Of a DNA stretch of 64,000 nucleotides, positions 2,860-46,955 are shown piece by piece (the first letter of the stretch is position 1; the number at the start of each line of letters is the position of its first letter). The notes under the pieces were generated by a model that had not been told where the DNA came from, searched no databases, and saw nothing but the letters and a program-made list of their open reading frames with translations. Origin of the DNA: Bacteroidota bacterium. GTDB lineage: Bacteria > Bacteroidota > Ignavibacteria > Kapaibacteriales > UBA961. A program made the translations under genes and the position numbers. Where the stretch lies: NCBI GenBank assembly GCA_018266765.1, contig JAFDZU010000010.1, positions 4,916 through 68,915 on the forward strand, read 5' to 3'.

Positions 2860-5601
2860 ATGAACGCACGAATCATTATAACGTTAAAACTTCTTCTACT
2901 GGTGTTATTATTAACTCCTTTGGGAGTAAGTGCGCAAATTTTTACTAATAAAGGTGCGATTGTAACCGGTATGAACGGTAGTACAGTCTGGATAAATGGA
3001 ACATTATGTAATATTTCATCAGGACAAATTACCTTCAATGGTTCTTCTTTGTTACAAGTTAATGGGGAAATCCAAGTACAGTCAGGTGAACTTAAACTTT
3101 TGGATGCATCGAATGCTGTTGCAACTGAGAATTGTATCGTTTTTCCAAATTCTCAAGTATTGCGATATGGCAATGGCACATTAAATGTTTATAAACTTTA
3201 TACTAATAGAGGATTGTTAGATAATAAGGGAACAGTCGAAATTGGTAATACAACTTTTCCGGCAACAGTAAAACAGAATTTTCATAACGACTCAACCGCA
3301 ACTTTTCTTAATAACGGGATGGTGCGTTTTCTTGCTGATAGCGGACGATTTTCTAATTACCAAAGTAATATTACTAAAGTAAATAACGACGGTGGAATTA
3401 TCGAGATGAGAGGCGTATATAATCGCTTTACTGAAGGTAATGGCGCACAACCATTTCTTGGAGATAATAATTCTACTGCACTTGGTTCACGATGGAACTT
3501 TCGTATTGGTGGTTTAGTTCGGTACGCACATGCTACTGATTCTCAGATTGTTCAATCTCGATATTTCTATGACCTTGAAATGGATAATGTTGCTCGCAAA
3601 CTAATTCCAACGGATGTTTATGTAGGTAATGGCTATACTGTTACACCTACATCCGGCATTAGAAAATATGTAGGTACTTTCCATTATGATGGTGATAATA
3701 CTCAATATATTTATCCCGAAAATGGAGTAAATCCTCTCACAGACCGCTACTATAATTTAGATTTATTAGTAAGCAACCAATCTAAAAAAAGTAAAAAGCA
3801 TTTAGATACAAATCTCATAACTCGTCTTGATGCAGTTCTTACGAGTGATAGTTTAGCCCCACTGTATGTGGATGGACAAATGCACTTAGGAGATTTAGGT
3901 CTCGATACTTCTATCACGTTTGGTACAATAGATATACGAAATAATGGTTTGGTTTCTATGGGAACTCGTCCGGCAGTAGTTCATGCAAATGTAACTGTTA
4001 GTCCGGGTACGTTTCAATCTCCGATTGGTGCAGGTGATGTTCACGTAGCAAGTACTGCAACGTTACAACTTGCAGCGACTAATGGTGTTTTACGTTTAGC
4101 ACAAGCTACAAACCTTTTTGTAACCGGTGATTTTGTCAATAAAGGTAATGGAACAAATTTATTTGCAAATCCAACATCAACAGTTACTTTCAATGGTACA
4201 GCCGGGCAAGAAATAGAAAGAACTACTGATACCAATGGCTACGGAAATGTAACTACTATTCGTGAGAAAAATGCTCTTCGTGGTAATGTATTTATGACAG
4301 GAAATTTAAGAGTTGAAGCCGGAAATATTAATATGTTTGGCGATACTCTTACCATGATTGATTCTAAAAAATCAGCATCATACGTTGGTGGACTAGAAGA
4401 AGTTGTAGGAGCAATGAGAAGATTGAATCTTCCAACAGGAACTGAACCATTTACTTTTAATAATGTTAATACTACGGTTGCTTTTATCTCAGAAAAAGAA
4501 ACTGTACCACCTGATATGACATTCACTGTTACTCCAAAAGCAAGTCCAACTAATCCGGCACTTCAATTTATTGATACAACTGATGCTAACCGTAGGATAA
4601 TTTTGGCTTTTTCCGGCTCAAATGATTGGGAGGCAACTGTTCGAGCGGGCTATAAAGTGAATGAAATCGGTTCAAAAGTTGATGAAACTCACCTCGAATT
4701 TTTTGAAGCAACTGTAGATACTGCTAAAAATATTAATACCTCACTTTTGAATCCATCAAATCAATATTCGAGGAAATTAGCTACTGCTTCTTCTATGGGA
4801 TATGTAGAATTGTCGGGTGTTCGTCCTTTTAAGCCATTGTCTCCTTATCCTCCGCCATCATTATTTGCATCAGGAAATGATTTGTTATTACGGTATTCAC
4901 CCGGAAATCCCTATTTGATTCTCTCGGCACGAGTGTTGCTTGAAGGACCTTATCGGGATGGTACGATGGCATTTGATTTACGGACATTAAATCTAATAGA
5001 CTCAATTGCACCGAATATTGCTCCTTATAATTTAGATTCTAACCGTCTCTTTGAAAAAGTACGAATAATACCTGATTCGATTGTAGATTGGGCTACAGTT
5101 GAAATTCGTTCTCAATTGTCAGGTGGAACTCGTGTATTTCGTAATTGTTTTTTACGCTCTGATGGTATGTTAGTGGATTTAGACGGTAAAAGTGCAGTTA
5201 CTTTGCCAATTTCACAACCCGGAGATTATTATATTGTGGTACGTCACAGAAATCACCTTGCAGTTATGACTTCTGCTCCGGTTACATTAAAACAAAAAAC
5301 TACTAATCAAACAGGTCTTCAAACGGTTGACTTGTCTAATGAAAATATTGTTCTTGGTGGAGTTGATGCATTAAAAGCAATAGCTCGGCGACCAGATAAC
5401 TCGATAATTTATGGTATGCCGGCAGGTGACTATAATACTAATGGGGTTATTGATAATTTAGATTATGATAGAATTTGGGTATGGAGAGACTACGAAGGAT
5501 ATTGGAATGAAGATACTGATCTTAATGGAATTGTAACTACTAAAGATTTTAATGTAAGCTGGAACAACGCTAACATGAAAAAGAAAACAGTAGTTCCTTA
5601 A
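2860..5601 (+). CDS. Large secreted protein, probably beta-helix/pectate-lyase-like, with no recognisable T9SS tail.
   Basis: The ORF-track start at 2851 is TTG; ATG 2860 gives the signal peptide MNARIIITLKLLLLVLLLTPLGVSAQ. N/G/T-rich repeats (ITFNGSSLLQVNGEIQVQSG) are typical of beta-helical passengers. The C-terminus …NMKKKTVVP lacks a T9SS C-terminal domain (CTD). Confidence 0.6.
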   Translation: MNARIIITLKLLLLVLLLTPLGVSAQIFTNKGAIVTGMNGSTVWINGTLCNISSGQITFNGSSLLQVNGEIQVQSGELKLLDASNAVATENCIVFPNSQVLRYGNGTLNVYKLYTNRGLLDNKGTVEIGNTTFPATVKQNFHNDSTATFLNNGMVRFLADSGRFSNYQSNITKVNNDGGIIEMRGVYNRFTEGNGAQPFLGDNNSTALGSRWNFRIGGLVRYAHATDSQIVQSRYFYDLEMDNVARKLIPTDVYVGNGYTVTPTSGIRKYVGTFHYDGDNTQYIYPENGVNPLTDRYYNLDLLVSNQSKKSKKHLDTNLITRLDAVLTSDSLAPLYVDGQMHLGDLGLDTSITFGTIDIRNNGLVSMGTRPAVVHANVTVSPGTFQSPIGAGDVHVASTATLQLAATNGVLRLAQATNLFVTGDFVNKGNGTNLFANPTSTVTFNGTAGQEIERTTDTNGYGNVTTIREKNALRGNVFMTGNLRVEAGNINMFGDTLTMIDSKKSASYVGGLEEVVGAMRRLNLPTGTEPFTFNNVNTTVAFISEKETVPPDMTFTVTPKASPTNPALQFIDTTDANRRIILAFSGSNDWEATVRAGYKVNEIGSKVDETHLEFFEATVDTAKNINTSLLNPSNQYSRKLATASSMGYVELSGVRPFKPLSPYPPPSLFASGNDLLLRYSPGNPYLILSARVLLEGPYRDGTMAFDLRTLNLIDSIAPNIAPYNLDSNRLFEKVRIIPDSIVDWATVEIRSQLSGGTRVFRNCFLRSDGMLVDLDGKSAVTLPISQPGDYYIVVRHRNHLAVMTSAPVTLKQKTTNQTGLQTVDLSNENIVLGGVDALKAIARRPDNSIIYGMPAGDYNTNGVIDNLDYDRIWVWRDYEGYWNEDTDLNGIVTTKDFNVSWNNANMKKKTVVP

Positions 5602-40650: not shown

Positions 40651-40766
40651 TCAATCTAAATGGTGATAGGATAGTTACAGTTACAAGTAATAATTATGGA
40701 AACTTCATAGTTAGAATGTACTTGAAACTGATAAAAATAGAGCCGTCCATTCTTTAAAAACTAAAT

Positions 40767-40802
40767 AGCCCTAACAGACTGTATTATAATCTGTTTGGGC
40801 TA
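40767..40802. terminator. Bidirectional hairpin between convergent genes.
   Basis: AGCCCTAACAGACTG tattataat CTGTTTGGGCT (one mismatch). Confidence 0.5.
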
Positions 40803-40819
40803 CTTATCTTTGTTTTCTC

Positions 40820-42394
40820 TTAATGACTAACAATTATTGGTTTCATAATAGTCCCTTTTAAAGAGTGAATAACCGCAAAGTACATTCCACTTGCCAAGTG
40901 GGTAGCATCAATCTCAGCTTTACTGTTAATTACTTGCTGATTTGCGACTTCCATACCTATACTATTCATAATATGTAGCGATGTACCGTTTTCTATCCCC
41001 GATATTGTTACGGTTGTTGTTGTTGGGGTTGGATAGACAGAGATATTGTCATTAGGAATTAGTACTTGCTCCAAAACCCCTGTTGCTCTTGGGCGAAGGC
41101 GTGTGATTTGTATAGATGTTTCTTGTTCTTTCCCGTAAACTATACTGTTACAAACAAATACTACATCTCCATTTGGTGCTTCAGCAAAACTCATAATTCT
41201 ATTCATAAGATTTTTATCTCCTGTTGTATAATACCAATCACATTCACCTTCATCATTCAATTTTGCAATAATACCTAAATGAGCATCTGAATAATTAATT
41301 GAGCCGTCATCTTTAAAAGAATAGATTTCACCGGTAATAAAAAAACCGCCCGTATTTCCTTTTGTAATTTCAAAATAAAAGAATTTAAGGTTTTTTAATA
41401 GTTCAGGTTGTTTTTTCCATAATAAGTTTCCTTTAGTATCATATTTTGACGTAATAAATGTTCTATCACTGCTACCTTGCAAGATAAAATATGACCCATC
41501 AGTATTGATTGCAACATCTGCTTCATTTTCCGTATGAATGACTAAGCGATTTATAAATTCAAATTCATTTGTGTATCGAAGTAACGTAACACTCCTTGCA
41601 GTATCTAAAGGAAACAACCCCGAATTTACTATGGTAAATGAAGCACTATTATACGGTAATATGCCTCGTATTCTATTATACATATCCTTTTTATATTCAT
41701 TATTGAACGAAAGTGTATTCTGTATTTTTGTAAACGAAGTATCAATCGAGAAAATCGAAATGCTGTCGGATTTCTCTCTATTTACATACACTCTTGTGTC
41801 AGGAAAAATAGTATAAACAGGTCCATGAGGAAGTGACTTTGGTAAAAGGGTACGAGTTGATTTTTCTTCCTTGACAGTTCCATCCGGAGAAATAATGAAT
41901 CTAATTGGATATGTGTCATAAAACCGAAATTGGTCTATCTTTCCTTCGTAGCCATAGACAAGAATATCACCATTGGTAAGTTCCGAAATATTCTCAAATC
42001 GTATATAATACTTTGAGGTATCTTCAGGAAAATCTTCAGAAAATTTCCTGTTGATTGTCCATTCTATCGCACCACTACCATTAATTTTTGTAAGTAATCC
42101 CCCCCTATTATAGATATGGCTAGCATAATAGAAACTGCCATCAGAAGCCGCAAAAAAGTGATTGGTCGTTATATCATGCCACTCCGGCTTATACACTAAC
42201 TTTTGCCAAACAGAATCAACTTCTCCACCTATTGTTGTTTTGAAGACATTGTTACTCAGAATACGAGAACCGCTTTTACTTTTGTGAATGTTTGGAGCTA
42301 ATTCTTGGGCTCCCAATGAATGGATGCTGTTATTAATATCTACCGTTAGAGAAGATAACAGTACAACCAAAAAAATTACAATATTATTTTTCAT
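40820..42394 (-). CDS. Secreted protein with a T9SS C-terminal sorting domain.
   Basis: Signal peptide MKNNIVIFLVVLLSSLTV. C-terminus …ISVYPTPTTTTVTISGIENGTSLHIMNSIGMEVANQ…ASGMYFAVIHSLKGTIMKPIIVSH is a Por_Secre_tail pattern. Confidence 0.65.
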   Translation of the reverse strand: MKNNIVIFLVVLLSSLTVDINNSIHSLGAQELAPNIHKSKSGSRILSNNVFKTTIGGEVDSVWQKLVYKPEWHDITTNHFFAASDGSFYYASHIYNRGGLLTKINGSGAIEWTINRKFSEDFPEDTSKYYIRFENISELTNGDILVYGYEGKIDQFRFYDTYPIRFIISPDGTVKEEKSTRTLLPKSLPHGPVYTIFPDTRVYVNREKSDSISIFSIDTSFTKIQNTLSFNNEYKKDMYNRIRGILPYNSASFTIVNSGLFPLDTARSVTLLRYTNEFEFINRLVIHTENEADVAINTDGSYFILQGSSDRTFITSKYDTKGNLLWKKQPELLKNLKFFYFEITKGNTGGFFITGEIYSFKDDGSINYSDAHLGIIAKLNDEGECDWYYTTGDKNLMNRIMSFAEAPNGDVVFVCNSIVYGKEQETSIQITRLRPRATGVLEQVLIPNDNISVYPTPTTTTVTISGIENGTSLHIMNSIGMEVANQQVINSKAEIDATHLASGMYFAVIHSLKGTIMKPIIVSH

Positions 42395-42624
42395 AAAAAG
42401 TATGGAATAGTTAATTTAAACTTTATGGTCAAATCGGGTGTGTAGACTTATGTTACATGTTAAATTTTTATAAGATATTCCGTAGCGGCTGGTTTACAAA
42501 CCCACCGTACAGAATTTTATTACAAATTAAAGAATAATGATACCAACATTTGATTTTCACTTAATATATTTGATTCTATACTAAGTAGAATTTCAAGAAT
42601 TAATAACGAAACTTCATAGTATTG

Positions 42625-43488
42625 TTATTCCGGGCAGCTTAGAGAATAACAGCCGGTACGATGAACTATAGTACATCCGTCCGGAGCGGTAAATGAAGAA
42701 AACCCGGTACAAGATGTAGAGAAACCGTAAGATGTAGTTGTAGGATTACAAGTACGAACCTCTCCGGTTGAAACATCATAACACATCTGCCAAGTTTTGA
42801 TACAACATTTTGAAGATTCACAAGCCATCCTCCAAGTTCCGGCAAATGGGGATCCTGTTGATGATGTTAATTCAAGGAATTCATAACATTCAGCGGAATA
42901 TGATCGTACCACTGCAAAGCCAGAGCCGGACGCACATCCTGTTGAGCCGAGGCAATCATAGCTACTATTTCCTTGTCGAATATAATTTTTAAAAAAGTGT
43001 TTAGCTGCAAGAATGTGTCCATAAGGCCAGATAGATTCAGATATACTCTTCCATGTAGCTTTTTCAGCAGGAGTACCATTAATGGCTATGTTCTTAAAGT
43101 AGTCATAACAAGGATTAGCTATCTGATACTGATTGACTTCGACTTCATACGTAGTACCACACCATCTATACCTATATCCAAAACATACTTGACAGCCGAC
43201 AGATAAACCATCAATTGGTATATAGACAGTTGTACAAAGATCAGTATTAAGTGGAGAAGAATTTACTTGCGTCCAGGTAGTCCATGTACATCCAACTGTT
43301 GCAGGTCCACAGTCTTCTCCCTTTGCATTAGGAGAATAACTTAATGAAGAAATAAAGACTATAAGAAGTGCAAGCCAAATGGCTTTTCCTCCTAACTCTC
43401 TATGTAAACAAGAGGTTAAATTGCGTGGACTCGGGGGGGGGGGGGACAGTAACTGCATTCCACATATAAGCGGAACTACGGCGAACAT
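42625..43488 (-). CDS. Cysteine-rich secreted protein of unknown function, with a homopolymeric tract in its 5' coding region.
   Basis: ATG at 43488. Hydrophobic signal-like segment KAIWLALLIVFISSLSYSPNA, preceded by a 33-aa extension containing SPPPPSP, which is encoded by the G13/C13 tract. The mature part has ~19 Cys (DCGP, GCTW, KCCIK, SCPE…). No family recognised. Confidence 0.55.
   Translation of the reverse strand: MFAVVPLICGMQLLSPPPPSPRNLTSCLHRELGGKAIWLALLIVFISSLSYSPNAKGEDCGPATVGCTWTTWTQVNSSPLNTDLCTTVYIPIDGLSVGCQVCFGYRYRWCGTTYEVEVNQYQIANPCYDYFKNIAINGTPAEKATWKSISESIWPYGHILAAKHFFKNYIRQGNSSYDCLGSTGCASGSGFAVVRSYSAECYEFLELTSSTGSPFAGTWRMACESSKCCIKTWQMCYDVSTGEVRTCNPTTTSYGFSTSCTGFSSFTAPDGCTIVHRTGCYSLSCPE
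43433..43445 (-). repeat. Homopolymeric G13 tract (C13 on the coding strand). A candidate slipped-strand phase-variation switch.
   Basis: tcGGGGGGGGGGGGGacagt lies 14 codons into the ORF that starts at 43488. A length of 13 keeps the frame; +/-1 leads to a stop within ~10-15 codons. Confidence 0.75.
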
Positions 43489-43823
43489 TAGGGAGAAATT
43501 GCATAAAGCACTCCATAAATAATTAGTTAAAAAATAATACTATATTTATGTTAGGAAAACAATTCCAACAGACAACCCAAATTACTATTTAATTTTATTA
43601 CATGCAAGACCTTTGCTTAATAAAATTAATTATTCCAAAATGTTATTATCGGTTAAATATTTTCTGATTATTTAATTTTTGTTTAATTTGCAAGTAGGGT
43701 AGTGATAGGACGACCCTTACTCACAAAAAACGACGTTATCCTTCACGCGCTTAATTCTATATAAACTATTGATTTAATAATTTCGCTGTTACCGTGAGTT
43801 ATACAGCACAAGGAGAAATTATT

Positions 43824-44363
43824 ATGTCTAAAAATAGGCATCGTCTTTATGAAGGGAAAATAAAAGCATCCCTTCTTCTCAAAAATCTTCGCTCAGAAGA
43901 CCTTGAAACGGCACAACTATCTGCCCGCCGTTTTCAAATCCTCCCACAATATTCTGCTCTCGATAGTGAGTTAATTAATTTGCAGAGTAAAACTGTGCGG
44001 TTAAAACATGCTCTTGAGGTAATTGCACTCGAACATGGAGTTTCTGATTGGAGCAGGTTTAAGCGGAAAATTACCGAAGAAGACTGTTTGTATCCTCAAA
44101 CGTGGAGCGCGCATTTCAATACATGGTATGCAAACTACGACGAGGCGAAAGACCATCTCAATAAAGTGGGTGGATATTTACTTCGTTATCGGCAACACTA
44201 TTTTATTTGCGAAAATGGATATATCCAAGCGTTAGGTTTGGAAGAATTTCAAGCTGAATGGGAACGCATCGGCTATGATTGGGTAAAGCCCTCAGATATA
44301 CTATCGTGGAATGTATTATTCAAAGAAGCTGAAAAGCAATATTTGGCTCGAATGCCAAAGTAG
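43824..44363 (+). CDS. Hypothetical cytoplasmic protein (179 aa), divergent from the Cys-rich gene.
   Basis: The ORF track begins with GTG at 43794. ATG 43824 is preceded by AGGAG (caaggagaaattattATG). No signal peptide and no recognisable domain. Confidence 0.5.
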   Translation: MSKNRHRLYEGKIKASLLLKNLRSEDLETAQLSARRFQILPQYSALDSELINLQSKTVRLKHALEVIALEHGVSDWSRFKRKITEEDCLYPQTWSAHFNTWYANYDEAKDHLNKVGGYLLRYRQHYFICENGYIQALGLEEFQAEWERIGYDWVKPSDILSWNVLFKEAEKQYLARMPK

Positions 44364-46385: not shown

Positions 46386-46955
46386 ATGAAAACTATTCAA
46401 GAGAGAATAGAACACTTAAATAAACTTAGTAGTAAATTAAGCAAAAAATACGAAAAGTTAGAAGAAAAATATGAAAAATTGCGTAAAAAATCAGAACTCT
46501 TAAAAGAGCAGGCAATGCTTATTGACTCGGCTTACCAACACTTAAATTCTGAAATAGAACGAACAGATAAAATGGCTCATCGTGAAATAAATGTGATGGA
46601 TTATCCGGTTGAAAACACAGAAATTCATAGCAAAATTCAATCCTTCTTAATAGAGACCAACAGTGGGAACTCAAAAAAATTGGGGAGACCATTAGGTGCG
46701 AAAAATAAGAAGTCGAAAAAAAATGAGAATTCTAAAGTTAATATAGAACAACTACTTCCCAAAAAACGTGGAAGACCGTTAGGAGCTAAAAACAAGAGAA
46801 AAAGAAAAGTTAAACCTGAAGATTTGGTTGCAAAAATACCAAAACCACTCGGCAGACCACCCGGCTCGAAAAATAAAAAGAAGAAAAGACTCGGCAGACC
46901 AATTGGCTCAAAGAATAAAAAAACAATTCTTCGGGAAGAACATAATGGTGAATAA
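46386..46955 (+). CDS. Coiled-coil protein with four AT-hook-like GRP repeats; putative AT-rich-DNA-binding or nucleoid-associated protein.
   Basis: N-terminal heptads (LSKKYEKLEEKYEKLRKKSELLKEQ). The C-terminal half carries LGRPLGAKNKKSKK, RGRPLGAKNKRKRK, LGRPPGSKNKKKKR and LGRPIGSKNKK, which are AT-hook core (G)RP flanked by K/R. Confidence 0.6.
   Translation: MKTIQERIEHLNKLSSKLSKKYEKLEEKYEKLRKKSELLKEQAMLIDSAYQHLNSEIERTDKMAHREINVMDYPVENTEIHSKIQSFLIETNSGNSKKLGRPLGAKNKKSKKNENSKVNIEQLLPKKRGRPLGAKNKRKRKVKPEDLVAKIPKPLGRPPGSKNKKKKRLGRPIGSKNKKTILREEHNGE

What the first reader, a model, noticed from the sequence alone, without database searches (positions are those of the whole stretch)
42625..44363. 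Orphan pair: a ~19-Cys secreted protein divergently paired with an unrecognisable cytoplasmic protein
The mature part of the 42625-43488 product has ~19 cysteines in ~230 aa (motifs DCGP, GCTW, CQVC, KCCIK, SCPE), no T9SS tail and no recognisable fold; I cannot assign either protein to a family. Its divergent neighbour 43824-44363 (179 aa, W/Y-rich, no signal peptide) starts ~335 bp away across an AT-rich promoter region. The patch 40.8-48.2 kb is flanked by hairpin terminators and contains several unrecognisable genes plus a sigma/anti-sigma pair, so it looks accessory. A disulfide-rich secreted effector/toxin-like protein under phase-variable control, with an intracellular partner (immunity or regulator), is one reading.
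Basis: partly seen in the sequence, partly recalled or inferred. Interest (0 to 1): 0.6.

Follow-up and report, generated by a model that had tools for sequence, protein, structure and literature searches.

The report
Cysteine-rich protein paired with T9SS cargo
The cysteine-rich secreted protein is real and belongs to a tiny, uncharacterised family, but its true partner is the secreted beta-propeller-like protein encoded just downstream, not the divergent neighbour, and a 13-base C run near its start may switch it on and off.

Summary
ORF 42625-43488(-) encodes a Sec-type pre-protein with 19 Cys in 231 mature residues. It has no T9SS tail and no match to Pfam, NCBIfam, PADLOC, PHROGs, PDB sequences or folds.

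The interpretation does not hold. The 179-aa neighbour (43824-44363) is a backbone gene, with 47 homologues in several phyla. In relatives it sits between the HhH-GPD glycosylase and carboxyltransferase genes with no Cys-rich gene present.

About 3 kb (~40651-43638) is an insertion of two genes: the Cys-rich gene plus the downstream 524-aa T9SS-sorted, beta-propeller-like protein (40820-42394). The same pair recurs in at least six other lineages in unrelated contexts, and the two genes diverge in parallel. The family has about 16 clusters among 1.84 billion representatives, and all named sources are Ignavibacteria-like. AlphaFold gives pLDDT 89.

A C13 run (43433-43445) lies between the conserved SD/ATG (43514-43502) and the signal peptide. 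At C13 the conserved start is out of frame; C12 or C15 restores it, and alternative ATGs are in frame at C13. dN/dS is 0.24 against a sister strain, so the gene is maintained. All three assemblies read C13, so switching is not shown. Function is inferred: a disulfide-locked binding partner of the T9SS cargo.

The parts
42625..43488 (-). Cys-rich protein ORF as it reads in this assembly (287 aa from ATG 43488; NCBI aa from ATG 43458). The mature part is about 231 aa with 19 Cys.
   Evidence: AlphaFold2 pLDDT 89.4 and pTM 0.82; no family or fold match
43499..43514 (-). Conserved ribosome-binding site and canonical start, GGAGTGCTTTATGCAA (SD GGAG 43514-43511, ATG 43504-43502). It opens the conserved leader frame MQFLPNVRRSSAYMWNAVTV...
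   Evidence: GGAGTGCT is invariant in window, L002, L013, L014 and L023, and the leader peptide is conserved in that frame
43433..43445 (-). Poly-C13 tract (G13 on the + strand), located between the canonical start and the signal-peptide core. At C13 the canonical start is out of frame and ends at a TAG after 34 codons. C12 or C15 joins it to the Cys-rich ORF. C11 or C14 leaves no ATG.
   Evidence: the same length occurs in L006 and in cluster member P0077; homologues have no tract
43318..43386 (-). Signal-peptide core and predicted SPase I site (KAIWLALLIVFISSLSYSPNAKG | EDC). It is preceded by the invariant AAGTTAGGAGG/KLGG motif at 43388-43398.
   Evidence: sequence inspection plus the family alignment, which shows equivalent A-x-G/Q | Q/E-x-C sites; no SignalP-type tool was run
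43539..43568 (-). Promoter-like site TTGGAA-N18-TATAGT, about 25 nt upstream of the SD. It lies in a stretch conserved with L002 and L023.
   Evidence: consensus match only
40820..42394 (-). Conserved partner: a 524-aa protein with a signal peptide, an internally repeated (SBBP/beta-propeller-like) body and a T9SS type A C-terminal sorting domain.
   Evidence: PF18962 E 2e-9 and TIGR04183 E 6e-9; orthologues lie downstream of Cys-rich genes in L005 (62%), L023 (52%), L014 (30%), L017 and L019
42478..42514 (-). Strong imperfect hairpin in the 230-nt spacer between the two cassette genes. It may be an attenuator or processing site and has no clean T-run.
   Evidence: region z = -2.7; not called as a terminator
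40651..43638 (.). Extent of the ~3-kb two-gene insertion relative to the syntenic relatives L008 and L011.
   Evidence: no flanking repeats or mobility genes were found
43824..44363 (+). The divergent neighbour: a conserved 179-aa cytoplasmic protein of unknown function. It is a backbone gene and not part of the cassette.
   Evidence: 47 homologues; synteny without the cassette; AlphaFold2 pLDDT 92.7 with no PDB fold match; dN/dS 0.30

Best explanation
Window ~40651-43638 is an accessory two-gene cassette inserted between a HhH-GPD glycosylase gene and a conserved 179-aa gene. It encodes (1) a Sec-exported, CTD-less protein of ~231 mature residues locked by about nine disulfides, which founds a very small, previously undescribed family seen in Ignavibacteria-like bacteria, and (2) directly downstream on the same strand, a ~520-aa beta-propeller-like protein carrying a type IX secretion sorting domain. 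Shown: the family exists, the pairing is conserved, the pair co-diverges, it lies in an insertion, and it is under purifying selection. Inferred: the Cys-rich protein folds and oxidises in the periplasm and acts as a specific binding partner of the T9SS cargo, as a subunit, chaperone or inhibitor, so that the pair works as a two-component surface or extracellular module. In this lineage only, a C13 tract sits between the conserved SD/ATG and the signal peptide. Slipped-strand changes of one base (or RNA-polymerase slippage) would move the conserved start in and out of frame. This makes production of the Cys-rich subunit stochastic or tunable, independently of the partner. That step is inferred from anatomy and was not observed. 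The divergent 179-aa gene is an unrelated housekeeping-type neighbour.
For: Family and rarity: there are 3 hits in 5.8 billion clusters and ~16 true members among 1.84 billion representatives by profile search. Seventeen cysteine columns are conserved across the family, plus a subclade-specific pair C85/C102. The model is confident (pLDDT 89.4). No known family or fold matches.

Pairing: the Cys-rich gene is followed by a ~500-546-aa Por_Secre_tail protein in the window, L006, L005, L014 (35-nt gap), L017/L018 (41 nt), L019 (96 nt), L020 and L023. The partners are homologous. Identities of the two genes fall in parallel: 56/62, 38/52, 29/30 and 28/29%. The partner family is equally rare, with 9 hits. 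The genomic contexts differ from locus to locus.

Insertion: L008 and L011 have HhH-GPD, then the neighbour, then carboxyltransferase, with a 190-bp spacer.

Selection: dN/dS against L006 is 0.24 for the Cys-rich gene and 0.22 for the partner. Flanking genes give 0.26-0.30.

Tract: C13 is unique in the window. The SD/ATG and leader frame conserved in five lineages are out of frame at C13 and in frame at C12 or C15.
Confidence: 0.55

Rival explanations
1. One reading: the Cys-rich protein is a secreted toxin or effector, and the divergent 179-aa cytoplasmic protein is its immunity protein or regulator.
For: The two genes are arranged divergently across an AT-rich spacer. Both lack any annotation.
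Against: The linkage is not conserved in either direction. The neighbour and its 185-nt upstream leader are syntenic backbone in relatives that lack the cassette. The two families have very different phyletic spread. A cytoplasmic immunity protein would not meet a Sec-exported toxin.
Confidence: 0.03
2. The tract is not a switch. C13 simply encodes a PPPP linker in a long N-terminal extension, and the gene is expressed constitutively from ATG 43488 or 43458.
For: The ORF is open through the tract from two in-frame ATGs. C13 is identical in three assemblies, including a strain about 4% divergent across the gene. dN/dS is 0.24, which shows the downstream frame is maintained.
Against: The SD-preceded start and the leader-peptide frame conserved in L002, L013, L014 and L023 are in the other frame in the window. 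Neither alternative ATG has an SD-like sequence, although this lineage uses SDs. A 13-base G/C run is expected about 3e-5 times by composition. From general knowledge of contingency loci, runs of this length are mutationally unstable.
Confidence: 0.3
3. The Cys-rich gene is decaying in this lineage. The homopolymer frameshift has disconnected it from its start, and the sister strain has acquired a nonsense codon.
For: The canonical start is out of frame. L006 has TGA at codon 85 and a cluster of 10 changed codons in 85-106.
Against: The window copy has no internal stop over 287 codons. dN/dS is 0.24, with 20 synonymous and 16 non-synonymous changes, the same as flanking genes. All family-conserved cysteines but one (the alignment-column-265 position, which is Pro214 here and also missing in P0003) are retained.
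Confidence: 0.1
4. The Cys-rich protein acts alone, for example as a periplasmic or outer-membrane-associated binding protein, protease inhibitor or bacteriocin-like factor. Its adjacency to a T9SS protein would then reflect only co-regulation.
For: No interaction evidence exists. L001/L022 pair it with a different large protein. The window has a 230-nt spacer between the genes.
Against: Seven lineages keep a ~500-546-aa CTD protein immediately downstream, often 35-96 nt away, and the two genes co-diverge. Both families are similarly rare.
Confidence: 0.2

Closest known systems
Homopolymeric-tract (slipped-strand mispairing) contingency genes for secreted or surface proteins, e.g. the poly-C tract in Gardnerella nanH3 (bioRxiv 10.1101/2020.09.16.300947); Neisseria, Haemophilus and Campylobacter loci (own knowledge)
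   Same: A long G/C homopolymer lies in the 5' coding region of an exported protein. One-base length changes switch between a full-length and a truncated product.
   Different: No length polymorphism has been observed here. Two of the three frames offer an ATG. The host is an uncultured environmental Ignavibacteria-like bacterium, not a host-adapted pathogen. The tract lies upstream of the signal-peptide core, inside a conserved N-terminal leader.
T9SS type A cargo proteins (Por_Secre_tail, PF18962 / TIGR04183)
   Same: The downstream partner has the sorting domain, and the organism encodes other such cargo.
   Different: The Cys-rich protein has no CTD. If it leaves the periplasm, it must do so bound to the partner or by another route. 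To my knowledge no T9SS accessory family resembles it.
Extended signal peptide regions (ESPR) of proteobacterial autotransporters and TPS proteins (own knowledge)
   Same: A conserved extension of ~35 residues precedes an otherwise normal n-h-c signal peptide.
   Different: There is no sequence similarity. The extension is restricted to one subclade of this family, and distant members (P0057, P0061, P0065) have ordinary short signal peptides. The conservation persists at DNA level even where the first ATG is lost (L013), so an RNA-level role is possible.
PF20066 Glyoxalase_8 N-terminal helical motif (for the neighbour only)
   Same: The short KHALxVIAxExG motif matches weakly (E 0.032 here; 3 of 45 family members down to 1.4e-4).
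   Different: The score is below the gathering threshold and covers only ~30 residues. There is no glyoxalase domain, and the predicted fold has no PDB match.

Membership tests
T9SS type A cargo (Cys-rich protein) | C-terminal Por_Secre_tail sorting domain (PF18962 / TIGR04183) | tested here: not met
   No hit at E <= 0.1-1 in Pfam or NCBIfam for the window protein or any of the 18 family members.
T9SS type A cargo (524-aa partner) | C-terminal Por_Secre_tail sorting domain plus an N-terminal signal peptide | tested here: met
   PF18962 at residues 453-522, E 2.2e-9 (37.9 bits, cutoff 27). TIGR04183 E 6e-9. The N-terminus MKNNIVIFLVVLLSSL is hydrophobic.
Simple-sequence-repeat phase-variable (contingency) gene | Long homopolymer (about 8 or more G/C) within the 5' coding region or promoter | tested here: met
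   C13 at 43433-43445, between the start codon and the signal-peptide core. The next longest G/C runs in 64 kb are 7 and 6.
Simple-sequence-repeat phase-variable (contingency) gene | Tract-length change toggles between a full-length and a truncated reading frame | tested here: met
   In-silico lengths 9-17 were tested. The canonical start is in frame at 9, 12 and 15. Alternative ATGs are in frame at 10, 13 and 16. There is no ATG at 11, 14 or 17.
Simple-sequence-repeat phase-variable (contingency) gene | Tract length varies within or between populations | tested here: not met
   The window, L006 (a different sample) and P0077 (Logan contig) all read C13. Only consensus assemblies were compared, not reads, and scans of the JGI metagenomes found no further copy.
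Simple-sequence-repeat phase-variable (contingency) gene | Reversible ON/OFF expression demonstrated | not testable with these tools
   This needs culture, reporter or read-level data.
   The neighbour is present without the Cys-rich gene in L008-L012. No 179-aa homologue was recognised next to the Cys-rich gene in L001-L005, L014, L017-L020 or L023.
Sec/SPase I secreted protein | n-h-c signal peptide with small residues at -3/-1, and no lipobox | tested here: inconclusive
   By inspection: K35, h-region AIWLALLIVFISSL, and A-K-G|E. Equivalent sites occur across the family, and there is no [LVI][ASTG][GAS]C lipobox. No dedicated predictor was available.
Any curated protein family or solved fold | Significant sequence or structure match | tested here: not met

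The most novel reading that the evidence does not exclude
The CTD-less, disulfide-locked protein is a new-fold subunit. It leaves the cell by hitch-hiking on its CTD-bearing beta-propeller partner through the type IX secretion system, forming a two-component surface or extracellular complex. In this lineage its stoichiometry or presence is switched stochastically by a poly-C contingency tract, placed in a conserved, ESPR-like leader that also folds to hide the SD and AUG. That would make it a contingency locus in a free-living Ignavibacteria-like bacterium.
Probability: 0.1. Interest if true: 0.65.

Novelty: new variant of a known kind. Interest (0 to 1): 0.4.

Why it matters
If the pairing reflects a physical complex, it would define a new accessory family for type IX secretion cargo. 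It would also raise the question of how a protein without a sorting domain reaches its partner, possibly by co-export of a folded complex, which is not an established T9SS mode. A homopolymer switch in an uncultured environmental Ignavibacteria-like bacterium would extend contingency loci beyond host-adapted pathogens. The confidently predicted model with about nine disulfides and no fold match would be a useful structural target. As it stands, the result corrects the gene pairing and gives a testable hypothesis. It does not demonstrate a function.

Tried and rejected
- Toxin-immunity pairing with the divergent neighbour: rejected by synteny.
- Defence-system or phage origin: no PADLOC or PHROGs hits.
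- Known RNA element in 40.5-44.5 kb: only a chance lncRNA hit at E 0.69.
- Mobile-element hallmarks around the insertion: no convincing terminal repeats.
- Diversity-generating retroelement as the cause of the L006 substitution cluster: considered, but no second copy of the region turned up in 40.6-43.75 kb. The rest of the window was not scanned for a template repeat or a reverse transcriptase, and the changes are not adenine-specific, so I dropped it.
- Internal start after the invariant AGGAGG: rejected because no consistent in-frame start codon follows it across homologues.
- Wnt/lipocone relationship suggested by a literature hit: not relevant.
- Tract-length variants in the JGI metagenomes, and more family members in genome or metagenome collections: only one extra locus, L022.
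- Promoter and terminator scans: not above shuffles.
- P0064 (2453 aa) in the profile search: a compositional false positive.

Full report
**Observation.** The ORF at 42625-43488(-) is real. It has no Por_Secre_tail and no hit in Pfam, NCBIfam, PADLOC or PHROGs. None of the 18 family members hits Pfam either. The divergent ORF 43824-44363(+) is 179 aa, has a conserved AAGGAG Shine-Dalgarno sequence and has no signal peptide. The plus strand carries G13 at 43433-43445, which is C13 in the gene. The next longest G/C runs in the 64 kb are 7 and 6, and composition predicts about 3e-5 runs of 13.

**The neighbour is not a partner.**
- The 179-aa protein has 47 homologues at E <= 0.01, with sources named Ignavibacteriae, Blastocatellia/Acidobacteria and Deinococcota.
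- In relatives where it is 73-75% identical (L008-L012), the gene order is T9SS protein, HhH-GPD glycosylase, 179-aa gene, then carboxyltransferase. Only ~190 bp separates the glycosylase from the 179-aa gene, and no Cys-rich gene is present.
- The 185 nt upstream of the neighbour (43639-43823) align closely with those relatives. They therefore belong to the backbone.
- The window's extra DNA runs from just after the glycosylase stop (40650) to ~43638. It holds exactly two genes: the Cys-rich gene and the 524-aa T9SS protein at 40820-42394(-).
- A 96%-identical strain (L006) has the same insertion.
- The neighbour's AlphaFold model is confident (pLDDT 92.7), but it has no PDB fold match (best E 0.9) and no PDB sequence match.
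- Its only lead is a sub-threshold match of a ~30-residue helical motif to PF20066. Its function stays unknown, but it behaves as a conserved core gene (dN/dS 0.30).

**The real pair.**
- The Cys-rich protein has three hits in the 5.8-billion-cluster database, one of which is itself (NCBI MAG 'Bacteroidetes bacterium', MBS1536573.1).
- A profile search of all 1.84 billion representatives found 19 proteins at E <= 0.001. About 16 are true members of 200-285 aa, and P0064 is compositional noise.
- GTDB species representatives hold one locus, from an uncultured Ignavibacteria MAG. The JGI metagenomes hold none.
- Wherever enough contig is available, the gene is followed on the same strand by a ~500-546-aa Por_Secre_tail protein. 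This holds for L005, L006, L014 (35-nt gap), L017/L018 (41 nt), L019 (96 nt), L020 and L023.
- These partners are homologous to the window's 524-aa protein: L005 62%, L023 52%, L014 30% at E 4e-63, L017 by full-length alignment with L014, and L019 at HMM E 1e-16.
- The identities of the two genes decline together across lineages, and the partner family is just as rare, with 9 hits.
- The flanking genes differ in every lineage, so the pair moves or is retained as a unit.
- The exceptions are L001/L022, which have a 1018-1024-aa IgGFc-binding-like protein instead, and L020, whose CTD proteins did not match the partner HMM.

**The protein.**
- Seventeen window cysteines fall in columns conserved across the family. 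C85 and C102 co-occur only in the window's subclade and are probably a pair.
- A cysteine present in most members (alignment column 265) is Pro214 here. Its absence tracks loss of the C272 position in three distant members. The window protein therefore has an odd count and possibly one free thiol. This pairing is inferred from presence and absence, not from coordinates.
- AlphaFold2 with the 18-sequence alignment gives pLDDT 89.4 and pTM 0.82. The model is a three-stranded N-terminal sheet, a 32-residue helix and a C-terminal six-stranded, cystine-dense domain.

**The 5' end.**
- Five lineages (window/L006, L002/L001/L022, L013, L014, L023) share an invariant GGAGTGCT followed by ATGCAA. This reads as an SD six bases before the start (L013 has lost this ATG and starts at the next one; see below).
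- They also share a conserved leader peptide: MQFLPNVRRSSAYMWNAVTV in the window, MQILSFVRCNSASLQNAVSS in L023, QFLPFVRRSSASMQNAVSS in L013 and MQYLPNSLCSSALMQNVFSS in L002.
- An invariant AAGTTAGGAGG (KLGG) sits just before the hydrophobic core.
- In the window this canonical start is ATG 43504-43502. The homologous frame is frame A upstream of the tract and the Cys-rich frame downstream of it.
- With C13 the two frames are offset. Frame A stops at a TAG after 34 codons. C12 or C15 restores a continuous ORF. C13 is in frame only with the non-conserved ATGs at 43488 and 43458. C11 or C14 has no ATG.
- No homologue has a tract at this position.
- The gene is nevertheless maintained. Against L006 it shows 20 synonymous and 16 non-synonymous changes (dN/dS 0.24), like the partner (0.22) and the flanking genes.
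- L006 itself has TGT-to-TGA at Cys85 within a dense patch of substitutions.
- All three assemblies containing the tract read C13, so variability is not demonstrated.
- The anatomy matches known poly-C contingency genes such as Gardnerella nanH3. It is equally compatible with constitutive use of the alternative ATGs or with transcriptional slippage.
- RNAalifold proposes a hairpin that pairs GGAG with CUCC and buries the AUG. Its pairs are invariant and so uninformative. A second hairpin has two compensatory pairs from only five sequences.

**Mechanism.**
- Shown: this is an accessory, co-inherited, selectively maintained gene pair. One product is T9SS-sorted, and the other is Sec-exported, disulfide-rich and CTD-less.
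- Inferred: the Cys-rich protein is a specific binding partner (subunit, chaperone or inhibitor) of the beta-propeller cargo, and the C13 tract modulates its production.
- I give about 0.85 to the re-pairing and insertion, about 0.35 to a direct physical partnership, and 0.4-0.5 to the tract acting as a genuine switch. The overall confidence of 0.55 weights the well-supported genomic part against these less certain mechanistic steps.

**Novelty.** The family and fold appear undescribed, and the pairing with T9SS cargo is new to my knowledge. The components are nonetheless of familiar kinds: Sec export, a T9SS CTD and a homopolymer. I rate it a new variant of a known kind, of moderate interest.

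Noticed in passing
window 43639-43823: The ~185 nt upstream of the 179-aa neighbour are conserved at DNA level with relatives whose protein is only ~75% identical (L008, L011). The stretch includes GGGTAGTGATAGGAC...CACAAAAAACGACGTTATCCTTCA. It has no Rfam match, and could be a regulatory leader or promoter.
   Followed up: partly
window 43372-43514 (-); L002 1691-1840; L013 37-190; L014 917-1042; L023 3938-4088: The leader of the Cys-rich gene is more conserved at nucleotide level than the mature coding region. This holds even in L013, where the first ATG is replaced by TAG. A predicted hairpin pairs the SD GGAG with CUCC and buries the AUG. AAGTTAGGAGG is invariant, including its synonymous positions.
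   Followed up: partly
L002 ~1555-1590 and L023 ~3810-3840: A tandem direct repeat, GTTGAAATCGTGCG x2, lies ~130 nt upstream of the Cys-rich gene in two lineages. It may be a regulator binding site. The window lacks it, because the insertion boundary lies closer to the gene.
   Followed up: no
window 42099-42105: The second-longest G/C run in the whole window (C7 on the + strand, G7 in the gene) also lies in the cassette, inside the partner gene near codons 97-99.
   Followed up: no
L006 ~5380-5445 (equivalent to window 43170-43236): The sister strain has 10 changed codons within codons 85-106 of the Cys-rich gene, including a TGA stop at Cys85. The rest of the gene is nearly identical. This could be a recombination patch or local relaxed selection.
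   Followed up: partly
window 46386-46955 (+): A 189-aa lysine-rich protein with an N-terminal coiled coil and four AT-hook-like repeats (K-x-GRP-x-G-[AS]-KNKK). It is probably a small DNA-binding, nucleoid-type protein. A 189-aa ORF occupies the same position in L007.
   Followed up: no
window 40689-40711 and 42598-42620: A 23-nt direct repeat (83% identical; minus-strand ACTATGAAGTTTC...) occurs downstream of the stop codons of both cassette genes. It may be chance or a shared 3' element.
   Followed up: no
window 42478-42514 (-): A strong imperfect hairpin sits in the 230-nt spacer between the Cys-rich gene and the T9SS partner gene. The spacer folds better than shuffled sequence (z = -2.7), but no T-run follows the hairpin.
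   Followed up: partly
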